A stretch of DNA of 64,000 nt from Candidatus Nomurabacteria bacterium (lineage in GTDB: Bacteria > Patescibacteriota > Minisyncoccia > Phycocordibacterales > UBA9973): positions 10,851-74,850 of the forward strand of contig JAPLXS010000006.1 in NCBI GenBank assembly GCA_026395965.1, read 5' to 3'. Below the pieces are notes generated by a model that ran no database searches, had not been told where the DNA came from, and saw nothing but the letters and a program-made list of their open reading frames with translations. Shown here piece by piece: positions 1-7,100 of this stretch (position 1 is its first letter; each line of letters starts with the position of its first letter). A program made the position numbers and the translations under genes.

Positions 1-27
1 CTAATACAAAAATAGGAATATTTTTAA

Positions 28-69
28 ATCTTAACTCGCTTTGCGCTATAGCGTAAAGCGAGTTAAGAT
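28..69. terminator. Long near-perfect hairpin (19-bp arms, one G/T mismatch) followed by a short T run on the plus strand. Possible intrinsic terminator of a gene upstream of the window.
   Basis: atcttaactcgctttgcgc / gcgtaaagcgagttaagat inverted repeat read directly. It is followed by ttttcc. Confidence 0.3.
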
Positions 70-172
70 TTTCCAAAGAATCAATAACTATAAAATATCG
101 GAATTGCCCACCAACACGTAAGGTTGAATAATCTTTTATATCTACATATTCTTGAATAATCATATATTGCAA

Positions 173-192
173 TTATATCATATGTGATATAA
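173..192. promoter_or_regulatory. Palindrome ttatatca-tatg-tgatataa about 40 bp upstream of the HTH-MurA start. Candidate operator overlapping the -10 region.
   Basis: 8-bp perfect inverted arms with a 4-bp spacer, seen in sequence. Its position next to an XRE-type HTH gene suggests autoregulation. Confidence 0.3.
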
Positions 193-229
193 AATATTAA
201 GTAGATTAATATTAATTATATATAAAAAA

Positions 230-1744
230 ATGCTCAAAAAGCAAACAGAACAGCAAAAGATTGGATATTTTATAAAAGAGCTCAGAGAGCGTCGTAATAT
301 GACACAAGATGCATTTGCGAAAGCACTAGAAACATCTCAGAGTGCTGTTGCTCGTATGGAAAAAGGTGAACAAAATTTTAGCACCGAAATACTAGGAAAA
401 ATAAGTGAGGTATTAAATCATCAAATTGTTTCTATAAATAATTCAATAGACTTTCAGATAAACGGTGGTAGAAAATTACACGGAAGCATAAACACGAATT
501 TCTCTAAAAATGGCTCGGTTGGTCTTCTTTGTGCTTCACTACTAAACAAAGGAAAGACTACTCTTCATGGTATTGCACGAATAGAAGAAGTTTATAGAGT
601 AATAGAATTGATTGAAAGCATCGGAGTTTCTGTAAAGTGGATCAATCATAATTCAGTATTAGTTACTCCTCCAGTTAAGTTTAATATGGATAAGATAAAC
701 GTAGAATCCGCCATAAGAACTCGCTCTGTTATCATGCTTATAGGCCCTCTAATACACCTATTGCCTATGTTCTCTATCCCCCATGCTTCAGGATGCAAAC
801 TAGGCAAAAGGACGATAAGTGCCCATACTTATGCGCTTGAAGATTTGGGAGTTAAAATAAAAACATTAAATACTGAATATAAAATTGAAAGCAAAAAATT
901 AAAACCTGCAGATATTGTAATGTATGAAGCTGGAGATACTGCATGTGAAAATATCTTGACTGCTGTATCAAAAATAAATGGCATCTCAACTATTCGATTT
1001 GCTAGTGCAAACTATATGGTTCAAGAAATATGTTTTTTCTTAGAAAAACTCGGTGTAAAAATAGATGGAATCGGAACATCAACTCTTGTAGTGCATGGAG
1101 TTAAAGATATAAATACTGATATAGAATATTACAATAGTGAAGACCCTATAGAATCTATGATGTTTATCTCTGCTGCTATTGCAACTGATTCAGAGCTCAA
1201 AATATTACGTTGCCCTATAGATTTTCTCTCTCTTGAAATAGAAAAACTAAAACGAATGAGATTAAAATACAAAATTCTTAAAAAGTATAAATCCTACAAC
1301 GAGAGAACAAATCTAGTTGATTTACAAATATTTCCATCTAAGCTCGTAGCACTTGAAGATAAAATCCACGCAAATCCTTACCCCGGTGTAAATATGGATA
1401 ACCTTCCATTCTTTGTACCTATCGCGATAAAAGCAAAAGGACAAACCATGATTCATGATTGGGTGTACGAAAATCGTGCTATATACTTTACAGAGCTCAA
1501 TAGACTAGGTGCTAGCGTCACCCTTGCTGACCCACATAGAGTATATATACAAGGAGGAACCCCTCTTAAAGAGGCTCAAGTAGTTTGCCCTCCTGCACTA
1601 CGTCCTGCCATGATAATACTCATAGGAATGCTGGGAGCACAAGGTACATCTATTTTGCGTAATGTATATATGATCAATCGTGGATACGAAGAGATAGCAG
1701 AAAGACTAAACTCCATAGGTGCTGATATAAAGATAATAAAATAA
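230..1744 (+). CDS. murA: UDP-N-acetylglucosamine 1-carboxyvinyltransferase (MurA/EPSP-synthase fold) with an N-terminal XRE-family helix-turn-helix extension of about 70 aa.
   Basis: Residues 10-65 (MTQDAFAKALETSQSAVARMEKGEQNFSTEILGKISEVL) are a typical XRE HTH. From INGGRKLHGSINTNFSKNGSVGLL onwards the protein aligns along the MurA family. The active-site Cys is retained (ASGCKLGKR, compare E. coli GGCTIGAR). ENRAIYFTELNRLGA and INRGYEEIAERLNSIGADI match conserved MurA C-terminal motifs. Confidence 0.75.
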   Translation: MLKKQTEQQKIGYFIKELRERRNMTQDAFAKALETSQSAVARMEKGEQNFSTEILGKISEVLNHQIVSINNSIDFQINGGRKLHGSINTNFSKNGSVGLLCASLLNKGKTTLHGIARIEEVYRVIELIESIGVSVKWINHNSVLVTPPVKFNMDKINVESAIRTRSVIMLIGPLIHLLPMFSIPHASGCKLGKRTISAHTYALEDLGVKIKTLNTEYKIESKKLKPADIVMYEAGDTACENILTAVSKINGISTIRFASANYMVQEICFFLEKLGVKIDGIGTSTLVVHGVKDINTDIEYYNSEDPIESMMFISAAIATDSELKILRCPIDFLSLEIEKLKRMRLKYKILKKYKSYNERTNLVDLQIFPSKLVALEDKIHANPYPGVNMDNLPFFVPIAIKAKGQTMIHDWVYENRAIYFTELNRLGASVTLADPHRVYIQGGTPLKEAQVVCPPALRPAMIILIGMLGAQGTSILRNVYMINRGYEEIAERLNSIGADIKIIK

Positions 1745-1751
1745 ATGAATC

Positions 1752-1790
1752 AAAAAAAGATGCAAGGCCTTACGGCTTTGCATCTTTTTT
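1752..1790. terminator. Bidirectional intrinsic terminator between convergent murA and eno.
   Basis: aagatgcaa...ttgcatctt stem flanked by an A-tract and a T-tract. Confidence 0.6.
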
Positions 1791-1802
1791 AATTAAAATA
1801 AA

Positions 1803-3122
1803 TTAAATTTTAAAAGCTTTTTTCCCTAGAAATATAGCTTTGCTCCCTAGTGATTCTTCTATTCTTAACAATTGATTGTATTTAGCAACTCTCTCACTAC
1901 GACAAAGTGATCCTGTTTTTATTTGACCAGTTCCAAGACCTACAACAAAATCTGCAATAGTTGTATCCTCAGTTTCTCCTGAACGATGAGAAACTACTGA
2001 GGTATAACCTGCTTTCTTTGCCATATTTATAGCATCGATTGTTTCAGATATAGTTCCTATTTGATTCAATTTAATCAAAATAGAATTAGCAGACTTTTCA
2101 GCTACACCACGAGAAAGTCTTGTGATATTTGTAACAAATAAATCGTCTCCTACTATTTGAATTTTCTTTCCTATCTTTTTTGTCATCAAAGACCATGCAC
2201 TCCAATCATCCTCAGCCAATCCGTCTTCTATAGAAACTATTGGATATTTGTTTACCCAATTTTCATAAAAGGCTATCATTTCGCTACTATCAAGCTTCTT
2301 CCCCTCTGTATCTAAATTATATTTACCATCTTTATATAGTTCACTTGCTGCTGCATCTATGGCAATACTTATATCTTTCCCTGATGTATAGCCAGCATTT
2401 TTAATAGCTTCAAGTATTATTTCAATAGCGGCTTCATTTGAAGGTAGTGAAGGAGCGTATCCGCCTTCATCCCCTACGGAAGTATTTAATTTCTTTGCTT
2501 TCAAAATCTTTTTCAACTCATGAAATACTTCAGATCCCCATTGTAGTGCTTGTTTAAATGATGCCGCTCCTATTGGCATAATCATAAATTCTTGAATATC
2601 CGTAGAATTTTCTGCATGACTGCCGCCATTTAATATATTCATCATCGGTACTGGAATATACACATCTTTTGTTTTTGATATATCTTTAAAATATTTCCAA
2701 AGTGGCTTATTTTCTGAAACTGATTTTGCTTTTGCAAATGCGATAGATACGCCCAATATTGCGTTAGCACCCAAATTACCTTTATTTTCAGTTCCATCAA
2801 GTTCAATCATAGCTAAATCTAAGGTCTTTTGATTCCAAATTTTACCTTTTATTTTTTTTGCTATAATGTCGTTTACATTTGAAACTGCTTTCAGAACTCC
2901 TTTGCCTCCGTATCTTTTTTTACCAGCTTTATTTTTCAAAGATTTGTCTTCATCTCTTAGCTCCACTGCTTCATGACTTCCAGTTGATGCACCAGATGGA
3001 ACTCCAGCTCTACCAAAAGATGCATCAGAAAGAGTAACTTCTACTTCAATAGTAGGATTACCTCTTGAATCAAGTATTTCACGTGCCCAAACTTTTGCTA
3101 TTTTAACTTCTTTTTTGTCCAT
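1803..3122 (-). CDS. eno: Enolase (phosphopyruvate hydratase).
   Basis: N-terminus [22 protein letters not shown] and [28 protein letters not shown] are canonical enolase signatures. Full length. Confidence 0.95.
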
Positions 3123-3146
3123 AATTTTATTTAATTAATTAATAAT

Positions 3147-4565
3147 TTATATAGTTTCAACTGTAATCATATTCGTAGAACCACTTCTTTTGTTGAAAGG
3201 CATTCCTCCCGTAATAACAATTATATCTCCTTTTTGTACAATTTTTGTTTTTAAACAATAATCCTTTATGTGCTTTGTAGTTTCTTTAAAAGAACCAAAA
3301 GATGGGATAAGCACAGGAACACACCCAAAAGAAATAGATATCTGATTTGCAGTAATTTGATTTGGTGTCAGAGTAAGTATTGTTTGCAATGGTTTATAGC
3401 GAGAAACCATTCTTGCAGTGTAGCCAGTTTCAGTTAAAGCTACTATAAATTTTGCGCCTAGGCTTGATGCTGTTTTGACAACTGCTTCAGTAATAGAATC
3501 AGTAATTTCTCTACTCTCATCTTCATTTTTATTTTCACTCAACTTTCTAACTGGATAATGATGCTCTATTTCAAAAGCCACTTTTGACATTATATTTACT
3601 GCTTCTAGTGGATATTCACCCAATGTTGTTTCTTCTGAAAGCATTATGGCGTCTGTACCATCCAAAATAGCATTTGCAATATCAGATACTTCAGCACGAG
3701 TTGGTACTGGAGATTTTATCATTGATTCAAGCATTTGAGTTGCAGTAATAACAATCTTGCCTGCGTCATTACATTTCTTTATTATCATCTTTTGGATCAA
3801 TGGTACTTTTTCTGCTGGTACTTCGATAGCGAGATCGCCACGAGCAACCATAAGACCATCGCATAGCTCAAGTATTGCATCAATATTTTTAACAGCTTGA
3901 GGTGTTTCTATTTTTGCAATTATTCTTGCTTTTGATTTTCTTTTATTTAAAATATTACGAAGTTCTGTGACATCACTAGGATTTCTTATAAATGAAAAAG
4001 CAAAGAAATCAACTTTATTTTTTAATCCAAATTCAATATCCTTAATATCTTTTTCAGTTAAACAACTCATTGAAATTTCGGAATCAGGCAAGTTAACTCC
4101 TCTGCGTCCTTTTGTGATACCACCTACTACTATTTTACATAGAACTTCTTTACCTTTTATACTTATAACTTCAAATCTCTTCTTTCCATCGTCTACCATT
4201 ATATTGTCACCTGCTTTTACTTCTTTTGGAAATAGTGGATAGTTTATAGAAACATTTTTTTCATCCCCAACAATCTTTTCTGTTGTTATAGTAATAGTAT
4301 TACCCTTTTTAAGCTCAACTGTCTCTTGATAAAACTCTCCTAGTCTTATTTTAGGACCTGAAAGATCTTGCATAATAGCGCCGATAATACCAGTTTTCTT
4401 CATAGCACTTCTGAAATTATCAACTTTTTCTTGATGTTCTTTAAAATCACCATGAGAAAAATTTAAACGCATAACATTTAAACCTGCTTTTAGAAGCTTT
4501 GTTAGCATTTCTTCAGAAGATGTGGCTGGACCTATAGTAGCTACGATTTTTGTTTTTTTAAACAT
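3147..4565 (-). CDS. pyk: Pyruvate kinase. The start is moved to the internal ATG (MFKKTKIVATIGP); the 22-aa upstream extension in the ORF track is unlikely to be real.
   Basis: MFKKTKIVATIGPATSS...MRLNFSHGDFKEH is a pyruvate kinase N-terminus. The cat at 4563-4565 gives the ATG on the minus strand. Confidence 0.9.
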   Translation of the reverse strand: MFKKTKIVATIGPATSSEEMLTKLLKAGLNVMRLNFSHGDFKEHQEKVDNFRSAMKKTGIIGAIMQDLSGPKIRLGEFYQETVELKKGNTITITTEKIVGDEKNVSINYPLFPKEVKAGDNIMVDDGKKRFEVISIKGKEVLCKIVVGGITKGRRGVNLPDSEISMSCLTEKDIKDIEFGLKNKVDFFAFSFIRNPSDVTELRNILNKRKSKARIIAKIETPQAVKNIDAILELCDGLMVARGDLAIEVPAEKVPLIQKMIIKKCNDAGKIVITATQMLESMIKSPVPTRAEVSDIANAILDGTDAIMLSEETTLGEYPLEAVNIMSKVAFEIEHHYPVRKLSENKNEDESREITDSITEAVVKTASSLGAKFIVALTETGYTARMVSRYKPLQTILTLTPNQITANQISISFGCVPVLIPSFGSFKETTKHIKDYCLKTKIVQKGDIIVITGGMPFNKRSGSTNMITVETI

Positions 4566-4693
4566 AAAATAAGATTGTCTATTTAATAATAAAAGATAAA
4601 GATACTTAAAAGTAAAATTACGCAAAAACATTATATCATAAACTAGATTTATATGAATAATTTATATTATATTTTAAAAACGATAGAAAATAA

Positions 4694-5461
4694 CTAAATT
4701 TTTCTAACTTCAATACACATAAACATGGGTATTTCTTTACGAGCTTTATCTTCTGCTAGTTGGCGAGGACCTGAGCCACTTTGTTTGTGGGATATCCATT
4801 CTTCAAGACGAGTTATAGCAAAATTATTTTTAGATAGTAATTTCATATAAAACTGGAGTGAACGATGAAAAGATATTGTATTTATTTTCTTCTTAATATT
4901 TTTTTCTCCCGGGGTCATATCTATAGACAATTTAGATTCGGAAAGGTATTTATGAATTATTCTTGATTGTATTCCATTTTCAAAATACCAGTCACTACCT
5001 TGAGGTACTCTGAAAGCTGGATGATTTAGAACCAAAACAATACGTCCATTTTTTTTAAGAATCCTATTGCACTCAGCAAAAACATCACCAACATTTTCGA
5101 TGTTTTGAATAGCTAAAACTACAACAACAGTATCAATAGTATTGTCTTTTAGAAACTGAGATCTATGTGCTGGAGATATATAAAATGATATTTTTTCTTT
5201 AGAATTCTTTTTGGCAGTTTCAATAAGTTTTTTGGATAAATCAGAAGCTACAACATTTGCTCCTTCATGGGCAAAAATATTAGCAAAATAACCCTGACCA
5301 CAAGCAAGGTCGAGTACTGTTTCTCCTTTATTTAAATTAAGAAATCTTAACAGATTTGGCAAAATAACTTTAGCTTGATAACTATCATCATTTTTCAATA
5401 ACTCGTCGTACCAATCAGCTACTTTGTTCCAAGATGTATCATTATTTTTGGATATTTTCAT
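4694..5461 (-). CDS. Class I SAM-dependent methyltransferase (UbiE/SmtA-like). Substrate unknown.
   Basis: Motif I VLDLACGQGYFANIF and overall length. Confidence 0.65.
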   Translation of the reverse strand: MKISKNNDTSWNKVADWYDELLKNDDSYQAKVILPNLLRFLNLNKGETVLDLACGQGYFANIFAHEGANVVASDLSKKLIETAKKNSKEKISFYISPAHRSQFLKDNTIDTVVVVLAIQNIENVGDVFAECNRILKKNGRIVLVLNHPAFRVPQGSDWYFENGIQSRIIHKYLSESKLSIDMTPGEKNIKKKINTISFHRSLQFYMKLLSKNNFAITRLEEWISHKQSGSGPRQLAEDKARKEIPMFMCIEVRKI

Positions 5462-5520
5462 ATTTTTGATTATAGCATTTATTTAAATTTTGGTCTTTAA
5501 AATAGATAAATAATTCAATT

Positions 5521-5540
5521 TTTAGACGTCCAACGTCTAA
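5521..5540. repeat. REP-like palindrome tttagacgtccaacgtctaa, copy 1.
   Basis: Read directly from the sequence. Confidence 0.5.
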
Positions 5541-5590
5541 TATATTTAAAAGGTAGTCGAAAAATATGCTTATAAAATAAGGTATATTTT

Positions 5591-5613
5591 TTTAGACGTT
5601 GGACGTCTAAAAA
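5591..5613. repeat. REP-like palindrome tttagacgttggacgtctaaaaa, the reverse complement of copy 1. Together they form an 89-bp inverted structure.
   Basis: The arms at 5522-5540 and 5592-5610 are exact reverse complements. Confidence 0.5.
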
Positions 5614-5621
5614 TCTAACGG

Positions 5622-7100
5622 TTATTCAACTATAGACATATCTTCAGGTCGAATTTCAGAACCTACATAATCAGCTTTATTGTCCTTTCTTTTTATCATT
5701 AAAAAAGCAGCTATACCCATACCAACAATTATAGTTAGGCCAATAAACGCATAAGTCCCATTTGAAACATCAACTCCAGATTGCGATGCATTTGCAGATA
5801 AGTCATTTAGATTTATTATTTGAGAATCTTTAGATTGAGAATTATTATTTATTTCATTTAAAATAGCAGGGTTATCATTTTTTTGATTATTAAATTGTGA
5901 ATTTTTCTGTACAGACTTTTTTGCAATAGTCGGATAAGAAGCTATAACTTCTTTTTTAATATTTGTTATTACAACTGAACCGATATCTTCTCCTGTAAAT
6001 CCAGTTATTTTAGGTGATAATTTTATTTTCTTTCCAGGCAAAAGTGTTGTGCCTTCTGGAATGATAAAATAATGAGTTCCAGCTGTCACTATCCAATTTG
6101 AAAGAGTGATGTCGTAATTGGATTTATTTTCAAGTTCAATAAAAGGATTTGTCTCATCTCCAACTGAACTTATATAAATTTCAGATGCTACAACTTTTAT
6201 AATAATTCTATTTGTAGCATCGGCTTGTTTATTGAAATTATTACTATAATAAGAAAGCGTCATTGAATATTCACCAGGATATTCATAAGTATATTCAAAT
6301 GGACCAGCTCCATTTACTTGATTAATCATCCCATTTCCAAAATTCCAAACCATTTTACCAAAAGCATAAGTATCTCCTTTGTTTGTAGTAGTTTGAGAGC
6401 TAAACAAAAAAGGAATTCCAGCTACGACAATTTTAGGTGATATTATTTTTGTTGTTACTTTTAAAACTCCTGAATCTTTATTGGAAACATTAGAGCTTGT
6501 GCTGATTGAATTTGAATTAGAATAAACAGTATCACTTGTGCTATTTGTACTCGTAACTGCATCCGTATTTGGATTTGTATTACTTTGGTTGGTTCTTCCT
6601 GGTGTTGGCATACCACTACCCCATTCTCCATTTATTTTAGACAATGAACTTTTTGACGCTTTACTTCCTCCGTTTGCAACATCATATGTCGTATAATCCA
6701 ATATTGTTTTATTGGCATCAGAAATAGCTATATAAGTGTTGTCTCCACTATCAGGCAATGAAAGTGCAGATGAGCTAAATATCATATCTGAAAAATTTAA
6801 CCAACTATAATCAGATAAGCTTTTTGCGATAACAGCATATTTTGAAGGCTGCAAAATAGAAGTACTACCACTCTTTAAAGAAATAGGGCTTGAATTTGTT
6901 TCTCCATGAAAAAATCTATATTTATTTAAATCAACAGGAGTAGAACCATTATTATATATTTCCACCCATTCATAATTCGAACCACCTTCTGGAGAATACA
7001 TAATCTCGCTAATTTCAATATTAGCATAAGCAAAATTTACCCAAGAAAAAAATATGGTAAATAAAATAATATTTTGTTTTGATGTTTTTGTTAAAAACAT
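5622..7100 (-). CDS. Secreted, membrane-anchored surface protein: signal peptide, lamin-tail domain (LTD), S/T/N-rich linker, PKD-like domain, second LTD, C-terminal TM helix.
   Basis: NIEISEIMYSPEGGSNYEWVEIYNNGSTPVDLNKYRFF and EIYISSVGDETNPFIELENKSNYDITLSNWIV match the LTD motif. WNFGNGMINQVNGAGPFEYTYEYPGEYSMTL is PKD-like. Hydrophobic N- and C-termini. Confidence 0.6.
   Translation of the reverse strand: MFLTKTSKQNIILFTIFFSWVNFAYANIEISEIMYSPEGGSNYEWVEIYNNGSTPVDLNKYRFFHGETNSSPISLKSGSTSILQPSKYAVIAKSLSDYSWLNFSDMIFSSSALSLPDSGDNTYIAISDANKTILDYTTYDVANGGSKASKSSLSKINGEWGSGMPTPGRTNQSNTNPNTDAVTSTNSTSDTVYSNSNSISTSSNVSNKDSGVLKVTTKIISPKIVVAGIPFLFSSQTTTNKGDTYAFGKMVWNFGNGMINQVNGAGPFEYTYEYPGEYSMTLSYYSNNFNKQADATNRIIIKVVASEIYISSVGDETNPFIELENKSNYDITLSNWIVTAGTHYFIIPEGTTLLPGKKIKLSPKITGFTGEDIGSVVITNIKKEVIASYPTIAKKSVQKNSQFNNQKNDNPAILNEINNNSQSKDSQIINLNDLSANASQSGVDVSNGTYAFIGLTIIVGMGIAAFLMIKRKDNKADYVGSEIRPEDMSIVE

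What the first reader, a model, noticed from the sequence alone, without database searches (positions are those of the whole stretch)
173..1744. MurA carrying an N-terminal XRE-type helix-turn-helix domain, with a palindrome over its own promoter
The first 70 residues form a typical XRE HTH. The remainder is a complete MurA, with the catalytic Cys and C-terminal motifs conserved. The first committed enzyme of peptidoglycan synthesis fused to a DNA-binding domain is unusual. An 8-4-8 palindrome (ttatatca tatg tgatataa) sits over the likely -10 region upstream. That suggests the fusion protein represses its own transcription, possibly coupling cell-wall precursor flux to gene expression.
Basis: partly seen in the sequence, partly recalled or inferred. 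Interest (0 to 1): 0.55.

Follow-up and report, generated by a model that had tools for sequence, protein, structure and literature searches.

The report
Self-regulating MurA with fused DNA-binding domain
The only MurA (first committed enzyme of cell-wall synthesis) of this tiny Patescibacteria genome carries a repressor-type DNA-binding head, and its matching palindromic site lies on its own promoter and that of the neighbouring murB, so the enzyme very probably shuts off its own pathway genes.

Summary
Observation confirmed; interpretation supported and extended. Window 230..1744 (+) is one 504-aa ORF: Pfam HTH_3 (res 15-63) joined by a ~10-residue linker to a complete MurA of a divergent subfamily. 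It is the only EPSP-synthase-fold gene in a 0.7-Mb, 97%-complete genome that has Mur ligases, MraY and PBPs.

The 8-4-8 palindrome at 173-192 is exact and unique in the genome. It fills the spacer and extended -10 of the fusion's promoter. Its left arm is also the extended -10 of the divergent murB.

Across 43 fusion loci, 38 have the palindrome (2 mismatches or fewer) within 150 nt upstream. Only 1 of 11 HTH-less loci of the same MurA subfamily does. The two fusion loci with a different recognition helix lack it.

The same fusion (50% identity) occurs as a second MurA in cultured Streptomyces and Nonomuraea. In those 70%-GC genomes an ATCTCA-N4-TGAGAT palindrome lies 28-30 nt before the start codon.

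A symmetric homodimer through the MurA body is predicted. The best reading is a bifunctional enzyme and autorepressor, like BirA; control by ligand is untested. I found no paper describing it. This scan has noted the same fusion before in at least 22 other genomes.

The parts
1..163 (-). 5' part of murB (UDP-N-acetylenolpyruvoylglucosamine reductase), transcribed divergently. ATG at 163-161. The full gene, about 348-351 aa, runs off the window.
   Evidence: L001 157..1212, 351 aa. tblastn shows murB as the divergent neighbour in 22 related loci.
167..172 (+). TTGCAA, a -35-like hexamer of the HTH-murA promoter that abuts the operator.
   Evidence: The same layout, TTGACA or TTGCAA followed by 1-4 nt and then the palindrome, occurs in loci of other families.
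173..192 (.). Operator candidate: 8-4-8 palindrome TTATATCA-TATG-TGATATAA. The conserved 18-bp core TATATCA-N4-TGATATA is at 174-191.
   Evidence: Unique in the genome. Conserved upstream of 38 of 43 fusion genes and 1 of 11 HTH-less genes.
172..180 (-). Extended -10 (TGATATAAT on the minus strand) for murB, formed by the left arm. It lies 8 nt before the murB ATG, so murB mRNA is probably leaderless or nearly so.
   Evidence: Read from the sequence. Promoter scan: minus-strand site 200..172 with TG. The transcription start is inferred.
185..193 (+). Extended -10 (TG-A-TATAAA) for HTH-murA, formed by the right arm. TAAAAT at 190-195 is an alternative -10.
   Evidence: Inferred from consensus only.
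230..1744 (+). HTH-MurA fusion gene, 504 aa plus stop.
272..418 (+). XRE-type HTH_3 domain (res 15-63). In the model the four helices are res 7-21, 26-32, 37-44 and 52-61.
332..361 (+). Recognition helix region TSQSAVARME (res 35-44).
   Evidence: Alignment of 43 HTH domains. The region is conserved wherever the palindrome is present and replaced in L038 and L047, which lack the palindrome.
419..451 (+). Short linker (res 64-74). pLDDT is below 50 at res 67-70.
452..1738 (+). MurA (UDP-GlcNAc enolpyruvyl transferase) body, res 75-503. The predicted dimer interface lies here.
794..796 (+). Codon of Cys189, the equivalent of catalytic Cys115 of E. coli MurA, in the flexible loop (res 189-192, pLDDT below 50).
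1753..1790 (.). 17-bp hairpin flanked by an A-run and a T-run: a bidirectional terminator between the convergent HTH-murA and eno genes.
   Evidence: -24.3 kcal/mol, z = -8.7.

Best explanation
The gene encodes a bifunctional protein. Its body is an active MurA, the only one in the cell. Its N-terminal XRE-type HTH binds, as a dimer held together by the MurA bodies, to a single 18-bp palindromic operator. That operator fills the spacer and extended -10 of the gene's own promoter. In this family its other arm is the extended -10 of the divergent murB. An occupied operator blocks RNA polymerase at both promoters, so MurA (and MurB) levels limit their own synthesis by negative autoregulation.

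Shown here by sequence and comparison: the fusion, the conserved catalytic residues, the uniqueness of the site, and the co-occurrence of the site with the HTH across two phyla.

Inferred: DNA binding itself, repression rather than activation, the dimer, and the promoter elements.

Speculative: that the open, closed or 'dormant' ligand state of the MurA body changes DNA binding.
For: (1) One ORF holds HTH_3 plus MurA. All 120 closest database homologues (83-96% identity) have both domains.

(2) It is the only PF00275 gene in a 97%-complete genome that also has 4 Mur ligases, MraY and 3 PBPs. Catalytic residues are conserved.

(3) The palindrome is unique in the genome, with 0.04 expected.

(4) 38 of 43 fusion loci have the palindrome at 2 mismatches or fewer within 150 nt upstream, and 20 are exact. 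Only 1 of 11 HTH-less loci of the same subfamily does. The background is 4 hits in 223,710 nt of the same loci.

(5) Outside this family the upstream gene is often co-directional, sometimes with a terminator, yet the left arm is kept between -35 and -10, where a promoter alone imposes no sequence.

(6) L038 and L047 are the two loci where the fusion carries a different recognition helix, and both lack the palindrome. L025 and L026 carry a symmetric change in both arms.

(7) The same fusion, 50% identical over 500 aa, is found in Nonomuraea, Streptomyces and Actinacidiphila. About 72 of 80 such loci have ATCTCA-N4-TGAGAT at -28 to -30 from the start codon, in DNA of about 70% GC.

(8) Homodimer prediction (2 x res 1-500): score 0.68, best of 3 controls 0.01. 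That mark was reached by 20 of 30 proteins solved as pairs of one chain and by 1 of 23 solved as single chains. The runs agree in at least 90% of contacts and the partner's pLDDT is 87. The interface is symmetric and lies in the MurA body. This may partly reflect memory of MurA crystal packings, and my own alignment was used.

(9) The AF2 monomer has pLDDT 91.6, with the HTH on a short low-confidence linker.
Against: There is no experimental evidence of DNA binding or of enzyme activity. Each arm of the palindrome also reads as an extended -10 element, so part of its conservation is promoter conservation. Related genomes are not independent samples. The HTH has been lost at least about 7 times on the MurA tree, so the regulation is dispensable. 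Five of 43 fusion loci lack a recognisable site; one of these is cut by a contig end, and two have a changed recognition helix. I found no simple rule linking half-site variants (ATATCA or ATCTCA) to residues of the recognition helix. MurA scores fall just below the NCBIfam cut-offs.
Confidence: 0.75

Rival explanations
1. The HTH binds the palindrome, but it activates or dually regulates transcription of murA and murB rather than repressing it.
For: Binding-site conservation says nothing about the sign of regulation. Some regulators that bind the -35/-10 spacer are activators (MerR type; from established knowledge).
Against: The site overlaps the -10 elements of both divergent promoters and abuts the -35. 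That is the classical position of XRE/Cro-type repressors. The HTH_3 family is not known for activation from the spacer. HTH-less relatives keep a TTGACA promoter and the gene without the site (L052), so expression does not need the protein.
Confidence: 0.08
2. The palindrome is only two back-to-back extended -10 promoter elements, or the site of another regulator. The fused HTH then has a different target or role.
For: Both arms read TGnTATAAT-like. In this family murB is divergent, so two promoters are needed there.
Against: The left arm and the exact 4-bp spacing are kept where no divergent gene exists. The HTH-less loci L010 and L014 have the same divergent murB but no palindrome. The palindrome is absent where the recognition helix differs. 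An equivalent AT-rich palindrome sits at a fixed distance before the fusion gene in 70%-GC Actinomycetes. It is the only such site in this genome.
Confidence: 0.05
3. The MurA body is no longer an enzyme. It would be only a ligand-sensing or dimerisation domain of a transcription factor, as the shikimate-kinase-like domain is in BzdR.
For: Scores fall below the NCBIfam MurA cut-offs. The subfamily is separated from canonical MurA by a very long branch. In Actinomycetes the fusion is a second copy beside canonical MurA, so it could be non-essential there.
Against: In this genome it is the only MurA-like gene, while the rest of the pathway is present and murB is its neighbour. K93, N94, R165, C189, R194, D390 and R458 are conserved. 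HTH-less members of the same subfamily are the only MurA candidates that the query found in their genomes.
Confidence: 0.05
4. The fusion is an artefact: a frameshift or assembly error, or the upstream ATG is not used and MurA starts near residue 75.
For: No Shine-Dalgarno sequence is visible before the ATG at 230.
Against: The same in-frame architecture occurs in hundreds of independent assemblies, including complete genomes of cultured strains. The HTH is conserved at the protein level. There is no Met between residues 43 and 152.
Confidence: 0.01

Closest known systems
BirA of Escherichia coli (biotin protein ligase and repressor of the bio operon); more broadly the 'trigger enzymes' such as PutA and NadR (concept recalled from established knowledge; BirA, PutA and trigger enzymes are discussed together in PMC8449670 and PMC5397151, found)
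   Same: An active metabolic enzyme carries an N-terminal DNA-binding domain, binds as a dimer to one palindromic operator that overlaps divergent promoters, and represses genes of its own pathway.
   Different: BirA has a winged HTH and a different enzyme fold, and it dimerises on DNA only with its reaction intermediate biotinyl-AMP. Here the domain is an XRE-type HTH_3 on an EPSP-synthase-fold enzyme, the target pathway is peptidoglycan synthesis, and any co-repressor is unknown.
BzdR of Azoarcus sp. CIB (NCBIfam NF006015, 'anaerobic benzoate catabolism transcriptional regulator')
   Same: An N-terminal HTH_3 domain is joined by a linker to an enzyme-derived C-terminal domain. The HTH of this protein matches that model (res 8-69, E 2.1e-7).
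   Different: The C-terminal domain of BzdR is shikimate-kinase-like and acts as a sensor, not an enzyme (established knowledge). Here the body is a full MurA with intact catalytic residues and is the only MurA of the cell.
RbkR, the archaeal riboflavin kinase and transcriptional regulator (PMC5397151)
   Same: A bifunctional enzyme-regulator identified by comparative genomics, with conserved operators upstream of pathway genes.
   Different: It differs in domain of life, DNA-binding domain, enzyme and pathway.
Canonical MurA (E. coli and Enterobacter cloacae, PDB 1UAE, 1NAW, 1EJC; best sequence match here 5UJS, E 8.9e-46)
   Same: Same fold and the same catalytic residues over the full length.
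   Different: Identity is only about 28-36% and scores fall below the NCBIfam equivalog cut-off. This protein adds an N-terminal HTH and has an insertion of about 11 residues near res 351-361. Canonical MurA is not known to bind DNA.
Known control of MurA in Firmicutes: PASTA-kinase signalling, direct inhibition and proteolysis (PMC12077105). Also feedback through the MurA-UDP-MurNAc 'dormant complex' (described in PMC9975281).
   Same: Control acts on the first committed step of peptidoglycan synthesis.
   Different: Those mechanisms are post-translational and need separate partner proteins or a metabolite. Here the proposed control is transcriptional and built into the enzyme.

Membership tests
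XRE-type HTH (Pfam HTH_3, PF01381) | Profile match above the curated cut-off | tested here: met
   49.1 bits against a cut-off of 23, E 5.8e-13, res 15-63.
XRE-type HTH (Pfam HTH_3, PF01381) | Compact helical bundle with helix-turn-helix (helices 2 and 3) | tested here: met
   The AF2 model has helices at res 7-21, 26-32, 37-44 and 52-61, with pLDDT about 82-89. No fold search was run.
XRE-type HTH (Pfam HTH_3, PF01381) | Sequence-specific binding to a palindromic operator as a dimer | not testable with these tools
   Only indirect support: operator-HTH co-occurrence and a predicted homodimer.
MurA (UDP-N-acetylglucosamine 1-carboxyvinyltransferase) | EPSP-synthase fold over the full length | tested here: met
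   PF00275 at res 78-493 covers profile positions 2-417 of 417, E 2.5e-35. 32 PDB MurA sequences match at E 1e-31 to 1e-45.
MurA (UDP-N-acetylglucosamine 1-carboxyvinyltransferase) | Score above the curated NCBIfam MurA cut-offs | tested here: not met
   TIGR01072 282 against 392.7; NF006873 293.6 against 297; NF009470 194.9 against 552. This is a divergent subfamily. It scores far above AroA (41 bits) and matches PDB MurA chains far better than NikO (E 9e-13).
MurA (UDP-N-acetylglucosamine 1-carboxyvinyltransferase) | Catalytic and substrate-binding residues (E. coli K22, N23, R91, C115, R120, D305, R397) | tested here: met
   K93, N94, R165, R194, D390 and R458 are invariant and C189 is at least 90% conserved in 54 sequences. 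The residue correspondence was read from the alignments to PDB MurA chains.
MurA (UDP-N-acetylglucosamine 1-carboxyvinyltransferase) | Genomic role: the only candidate for this step in a genome with the rest of the pathway | tested here: met
   One PF00275 hit in the genome. Four Mur ligases, MraY and 3 PBPs are present, and murB is adjacent.
MurA (UDP-N-acetylglucosamine 1-carboxyvinyltransferase) | Enolpyruvyl transfer from PEP to UDP-GlcNAc | not testable with these tools
   Needs an enzyme assay or complementation.
Bifunctional enzyme-repressors ('trigger enzymes', BirA type) | Enzyme and DNA-binding domain in one polypeptide | tested here: met
Bifunctional enzyme-repressors ('trigger enzymes', BirA type) | Operator at promoters of the enzyme's own pathway genes | tested here: met
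   By comparative genomics only.
Bifunctional enzyme-repressors ('trigger enzymes', BirA type) | DNA binding modulated by the enzyme's substrate, product or intermediate | not testable with these tools
   No data. This is the open question.

The most novel reading that the evidence does not exclude
The MurA body acts as the sensor of its own repressor. The large open-to-closed movement of MurA, or its 'dormant' state with UDP-MurNAc (the product of the co-regulated MurB) and a Cys-PEP adduct, would change the geometry of the two short-tethered HTH heads. Operator occupancy, and so murA and murB transcription, would then report cell-wall precursor supply directly. That would be a one-protein feedback loop on the committed step of peptidoglycan synthesis, shared by Patescibacteria and Streptomyces.
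Probability: 0.35. Interest if true: 0.8.

Novelty: new variant of a known kind. Interest (0 to 1): 0.65.

Why it matters
MurA is the committed step of peptidoglycan synthesis and the target of fosfomycin. Its known regulation is post-translational and best studied in Firmicutes. A MurA that carries its own operator-binding domain would be a new, minimal way to keep cell-wall precursor synthesis in balance. That fits genomes of 0.7 Mb with few regulators.

The same module occurs as a second MurA in cultured Streptomyces and Nonomuraea. The idea can therefore be tested at the bench now, without cultivating Patescibacteria.

The 50% identity between phyla also raises the question of gene transfer between Actinomycetes and Patescibacteria. 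Some Patescibacteria live on Actinomycetes (recalled knowledge, not tested here).

Tried and rejected
(1) Frameshift or artefact: rejected.

(2) A split HTH gene next to HTH-less relatives: a permissive tblastn found none. The one exception is a weak, separate XRE ORF about 600 nt upstream in L043 (E 0.006, 25% identity), which is probably unrelated.

(3) A simple code linking the recognition helix to the half-site: not found. Helices of the AVARME and AVNRIE types both occur with ATATCA, and TGAGATA half-sites occur with both.

(4) Regulon search: there is no second exact site in the genome. The four 1-mismatch sites were not examined for position.

(5) The second AT-only palindrome at 193-213 (AATATTAA-N5-TTAATATT) is not conserved in relatives and is treated as chance in AT-rich DNA.

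(6) Literature: searches combining MurA with helix-turn-helix, XRE, Patescibacteria, CPR or fusion, and Streptomyces with murA2, returned no description of the fusion. S. venezuelae murA2 is a BldM-WhiI target (PMC4125116, PMC11005364). I could not determine whether that gene is the HTH form.

(7) A search of the genome behind L060 failed because the record is not held. I used the genomes behind L063, L091 and L086 instead.

(8) The careful tree search did not finish. The loss counts come from the quick IQ-TREE tree.

Full report
WHAT IS THERE

Window 230..1744 (+) is a single open frame of 504 codons.
- Pfam places an XRE-type HTH_3 domain at residues 15-63 (E 5.8e-13, above the cut-off) and a full-length EPSP-synthase-fold domain at residues 78-493.
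- NCBIfam MurA models cover residues 75-503. They score just below (NF006873, 293.6 against 297) or well below (TIGR01072, 282 against 392.7) their curated cut-offs.
- The best solved relatives are all MurA (5UJS, E 8.9e-46). NikO is far behind (E 9e-13).
- In an alignment of 54 relatives the equivalents of E. coli K22, N23, R91, R120, D305 and R397 are invariant, and the catalytic Cys (C189) is at least 90% conserved.
- The AlphaFold model is confident (pLDDT 91.6). It shows a four-helix HTH head, a short low-confidence linker (res 62-73), and a two-domain MurA body with the usual flexible Cys loop.

GENOME CONTEXT

The window lies in a 698,616-bp, 12-contig genome that is 97% complete. Database names of the closest homologues are Candidatus Nomurabacteria and Paceibacteria, within Patescibacteria.
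- The fusion is the only PF00275 gene in this genome.
- Four Mur ligases, MraY and three penicillin-binding proteins are present.
- murB is the divergent upstream neighbour. Its ATG is at 163-161, 66 bp from the fusion's ATG at 230.
- Downstream, a strong bidirectional terminator hairpin (1753-1790) separates the gene from the convergent eno and pyk genes.

THE PALINDROME

TTATATCA-TATG-TGATATAA is exactly at 173-192. Its 18-bp core occurs once in the genome, against 0.04 expected from composition.

It directly follows TTGCAA (167-172), the -35-like hexamer. Its right arm reads TG-A-TATAAA, an extended -10 for the fusion gene. On the other strand its left arm reads TGATATAAT, an extended -10 that lies 8 nt before the murB ATG. 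A protein bound here would block both promoters. These promoter assignments rest on consensus only.

IS THE PALINDROME MORE THAN TWO PROMOTERS?

I compared 54 loci of the same MurA subfamily, taken from 60 genomes of the family and 400 of the phylum.
- Of 43 loci with the HTH, 38 have the palindrome at 2 mismatches or fewer within 150 nt upstream, and 20 are exact.
- Of 11 loci without the HTH, one does (L052). That locus keeps a TTGACA promoter and a decayed site.
- The rest of these loci give 4 such hits in 223,710 nt.
- L010 and L014 have the same divergent murB but no HTH and no palindrome.
- In other families the upstream gene is often co-directional, sometimes ending in a terminator. Even so, the layout '-35, then 1-4 nt, then the palindrome' is kept. 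The left arm then lies in a promoter spacer, where promoter function alone imposes no sequence.
- The recognition helix TSQSAVARME is conserved wherever the site is present. L038 and L047 have a different helix, and both lack the site.
- L025 and L026 carry the same base change in both arms.

Related genomes are not independent, so I give these as counts and not as a test.

AN INDEPENDENT REPLICATE IN ANOTHER PHYLUM

A query spanning the junction (res 1-130) hits 185 clusters (50%-identity clusters) at E of 1e-10 or better. One full-length hit belongs to Nonomuraea.
- That protein is 50% identical to this one over 500 residues.
- Close relatives (86-99% identity to it) fill the 80-locus list returned from species genomes of Nonomuraea, Streptomyces (including S. 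rimosus and S. avidinii) and Actinacidiphila. In total, 595 matching stretches were found.
- These genomes are about 70% GC. In about 72 of the 80 loci the AT-rich palindrome ATCTCA-N4-TGAGAT sits 28-30 nt before the start codon.
- In three complete genomes the fusion is a second copy beside one or two canonical MurA genes.

So the HTH-operator pair travels together across two phyla.

DISTRIBUTION AND HISTORY

- In the phylum sample, 67 of 400 genomes have this MurA subfamily: 43 with the HTH and 24 without. Most others have a canonical MurA at about 30-36% identity.
- In the family sample, 22 genomes have the fusion, 3 have the HTH-less form and 2 have a canonical MurA. In 33, this query found no MurA-like match.
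- On a quick maximum-likelihood tree, HTH-less members are nested among fused ones. At least 7 changes are needed, which is most simply explained by repeated loss.

DIMER

A palindromic operator calls for a dimer. Two copies of residues 1-500 gave a score of 0.68, with a best of 3 controls of 0.01.
- That mark was reached by 20 of 30 proteins solved as pairs of one chain and by 1 of 23 solved as single chains.
- The runs agree in at least 90% of contacts, and the partner's pLDDT is 87.
- The interface is symmetric and lies in the MurA body, at res 197-201, 230-234, 256-257, 283-285, 334-342, 376-386, 409-411 and 434-436.

This supports a dimer but does not show one. It may partly reflect MurA crystal packings the model has seen, and my own alignment was used.

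MECHANISM

Most likely (0.75), this is an active MurA that binds, as a dimer, the single operator on its own promoter and on the murB promoter, and represses both.
- Shown: the fusion, the catalytic residues, the unique site, and the co-occurrence of site and HTH.
- Inferred: DNA binding, the sign of regulation, the dimer, and the promoter elements.
- Speculative: control by ligand. MurA closes on UDP-GlcNAc and forms a 'dormant complex' with UDP-MurNAc and a Cys-PEP adduct (described in PMC9975281). UDP-MurNAc is the product of the co-regulated MurB, which makes it an attractive co-repressor. Nothing here tests that.

COMPARISON WITH KNOWN SYSTEMS

It works like BirA and other enzyme-repressors (PutA, NadR, RbkR; PMC5397151, PMC8449670). 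It shares its HTH_3-plus-enzyme-fold layout with BzdR (NF006015 match), whose enzyme-like domain is only a sensor. It is not a member of those families.

It is an XRE-type HTH by Pfam. It is a MurA by fold, catalytic residues and genomic role, although its score is below the NCBIfam cut-offs.

I found no paper describing the fusion. Public annotations call it either MurA or 'helix-turn-helix domain-containing protein'. Earlier AI notes of this scan describe the same fusion in at least 22 other genomes. I treated them as leads and re-derived the evidence here.

VERDICT

This is a new variant of a known kind (enzyme-repressor), undescribed as far as I could search, and testable in cultured Actinomycetes.

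Noticed in passing
window 26-71 (inside murB, minus-strand gene): A 46-bp near-perfect palindrome (23-nt arms, 96% complementary, no loop) lies inside the murB coding region. Neither arm recurs elsewhere in the genome, and the relatives examined have no comparable hairpin.
   Followed up: partly
window 1803-3122 (-) and 3147-4631 (-): Enolase, which makes PEP, and pyruvate kinase, which consumes PEP, lie directly downstream of the PEP-using MurA and converge on it. Together they form a small cluster of PEP-related genes.
   Followed up: no
window 161-180: The murB ATG lies only 8 nt after the extended -10 TGATATAAT on its strand, so murB mRNA is probably leaderless. HTH-less relatives (L010, L014) show the same layout, TG-n-TATGAT followed by about 9 nt and then ATG.
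   Followed up: partly
family sample, (e.g. G004, G013, G014, G016, G048): In 33 of 60 genomes of the same family, many of them 96-100% complete and consistently by genus, this query found no MurA-like match. These may be lineages without the committed step of peptidoglycan synthesis, or with a very different enzyme.
   Followed up: no
L060 and L062 (Nonomuraea), 2281-6657: In Nonomuraea the fusion gene starts 15 nt after a 567-aa gene with formyltransferase and enoyl-CoA hydratase domains, and a tyrosine recombinase ('phage integrase') gene follows it. This may be a mobile or island context.
   Followed up: no
window 193-213: A second, AT-only palindrome AATATTAA-N5-TTAATATT lies between the operator and the start codon. 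It is not conserved in relatives.
   Followed up: partly
P0136: A 1002-aa protein in the representative library contains nine consecutive HTH_3-like stretches that match this HTH.
   Followed up: no
L032 (G343), about 60-140 nt upstream of its HTH-less murA: In the closest HTH-less relative, the upstream region looks by eye like a tRNA gene in place of murB and the operator. This suggests a rearrangement at the time the HTH was lost. No tRNA scan was run.
   Followed up: no
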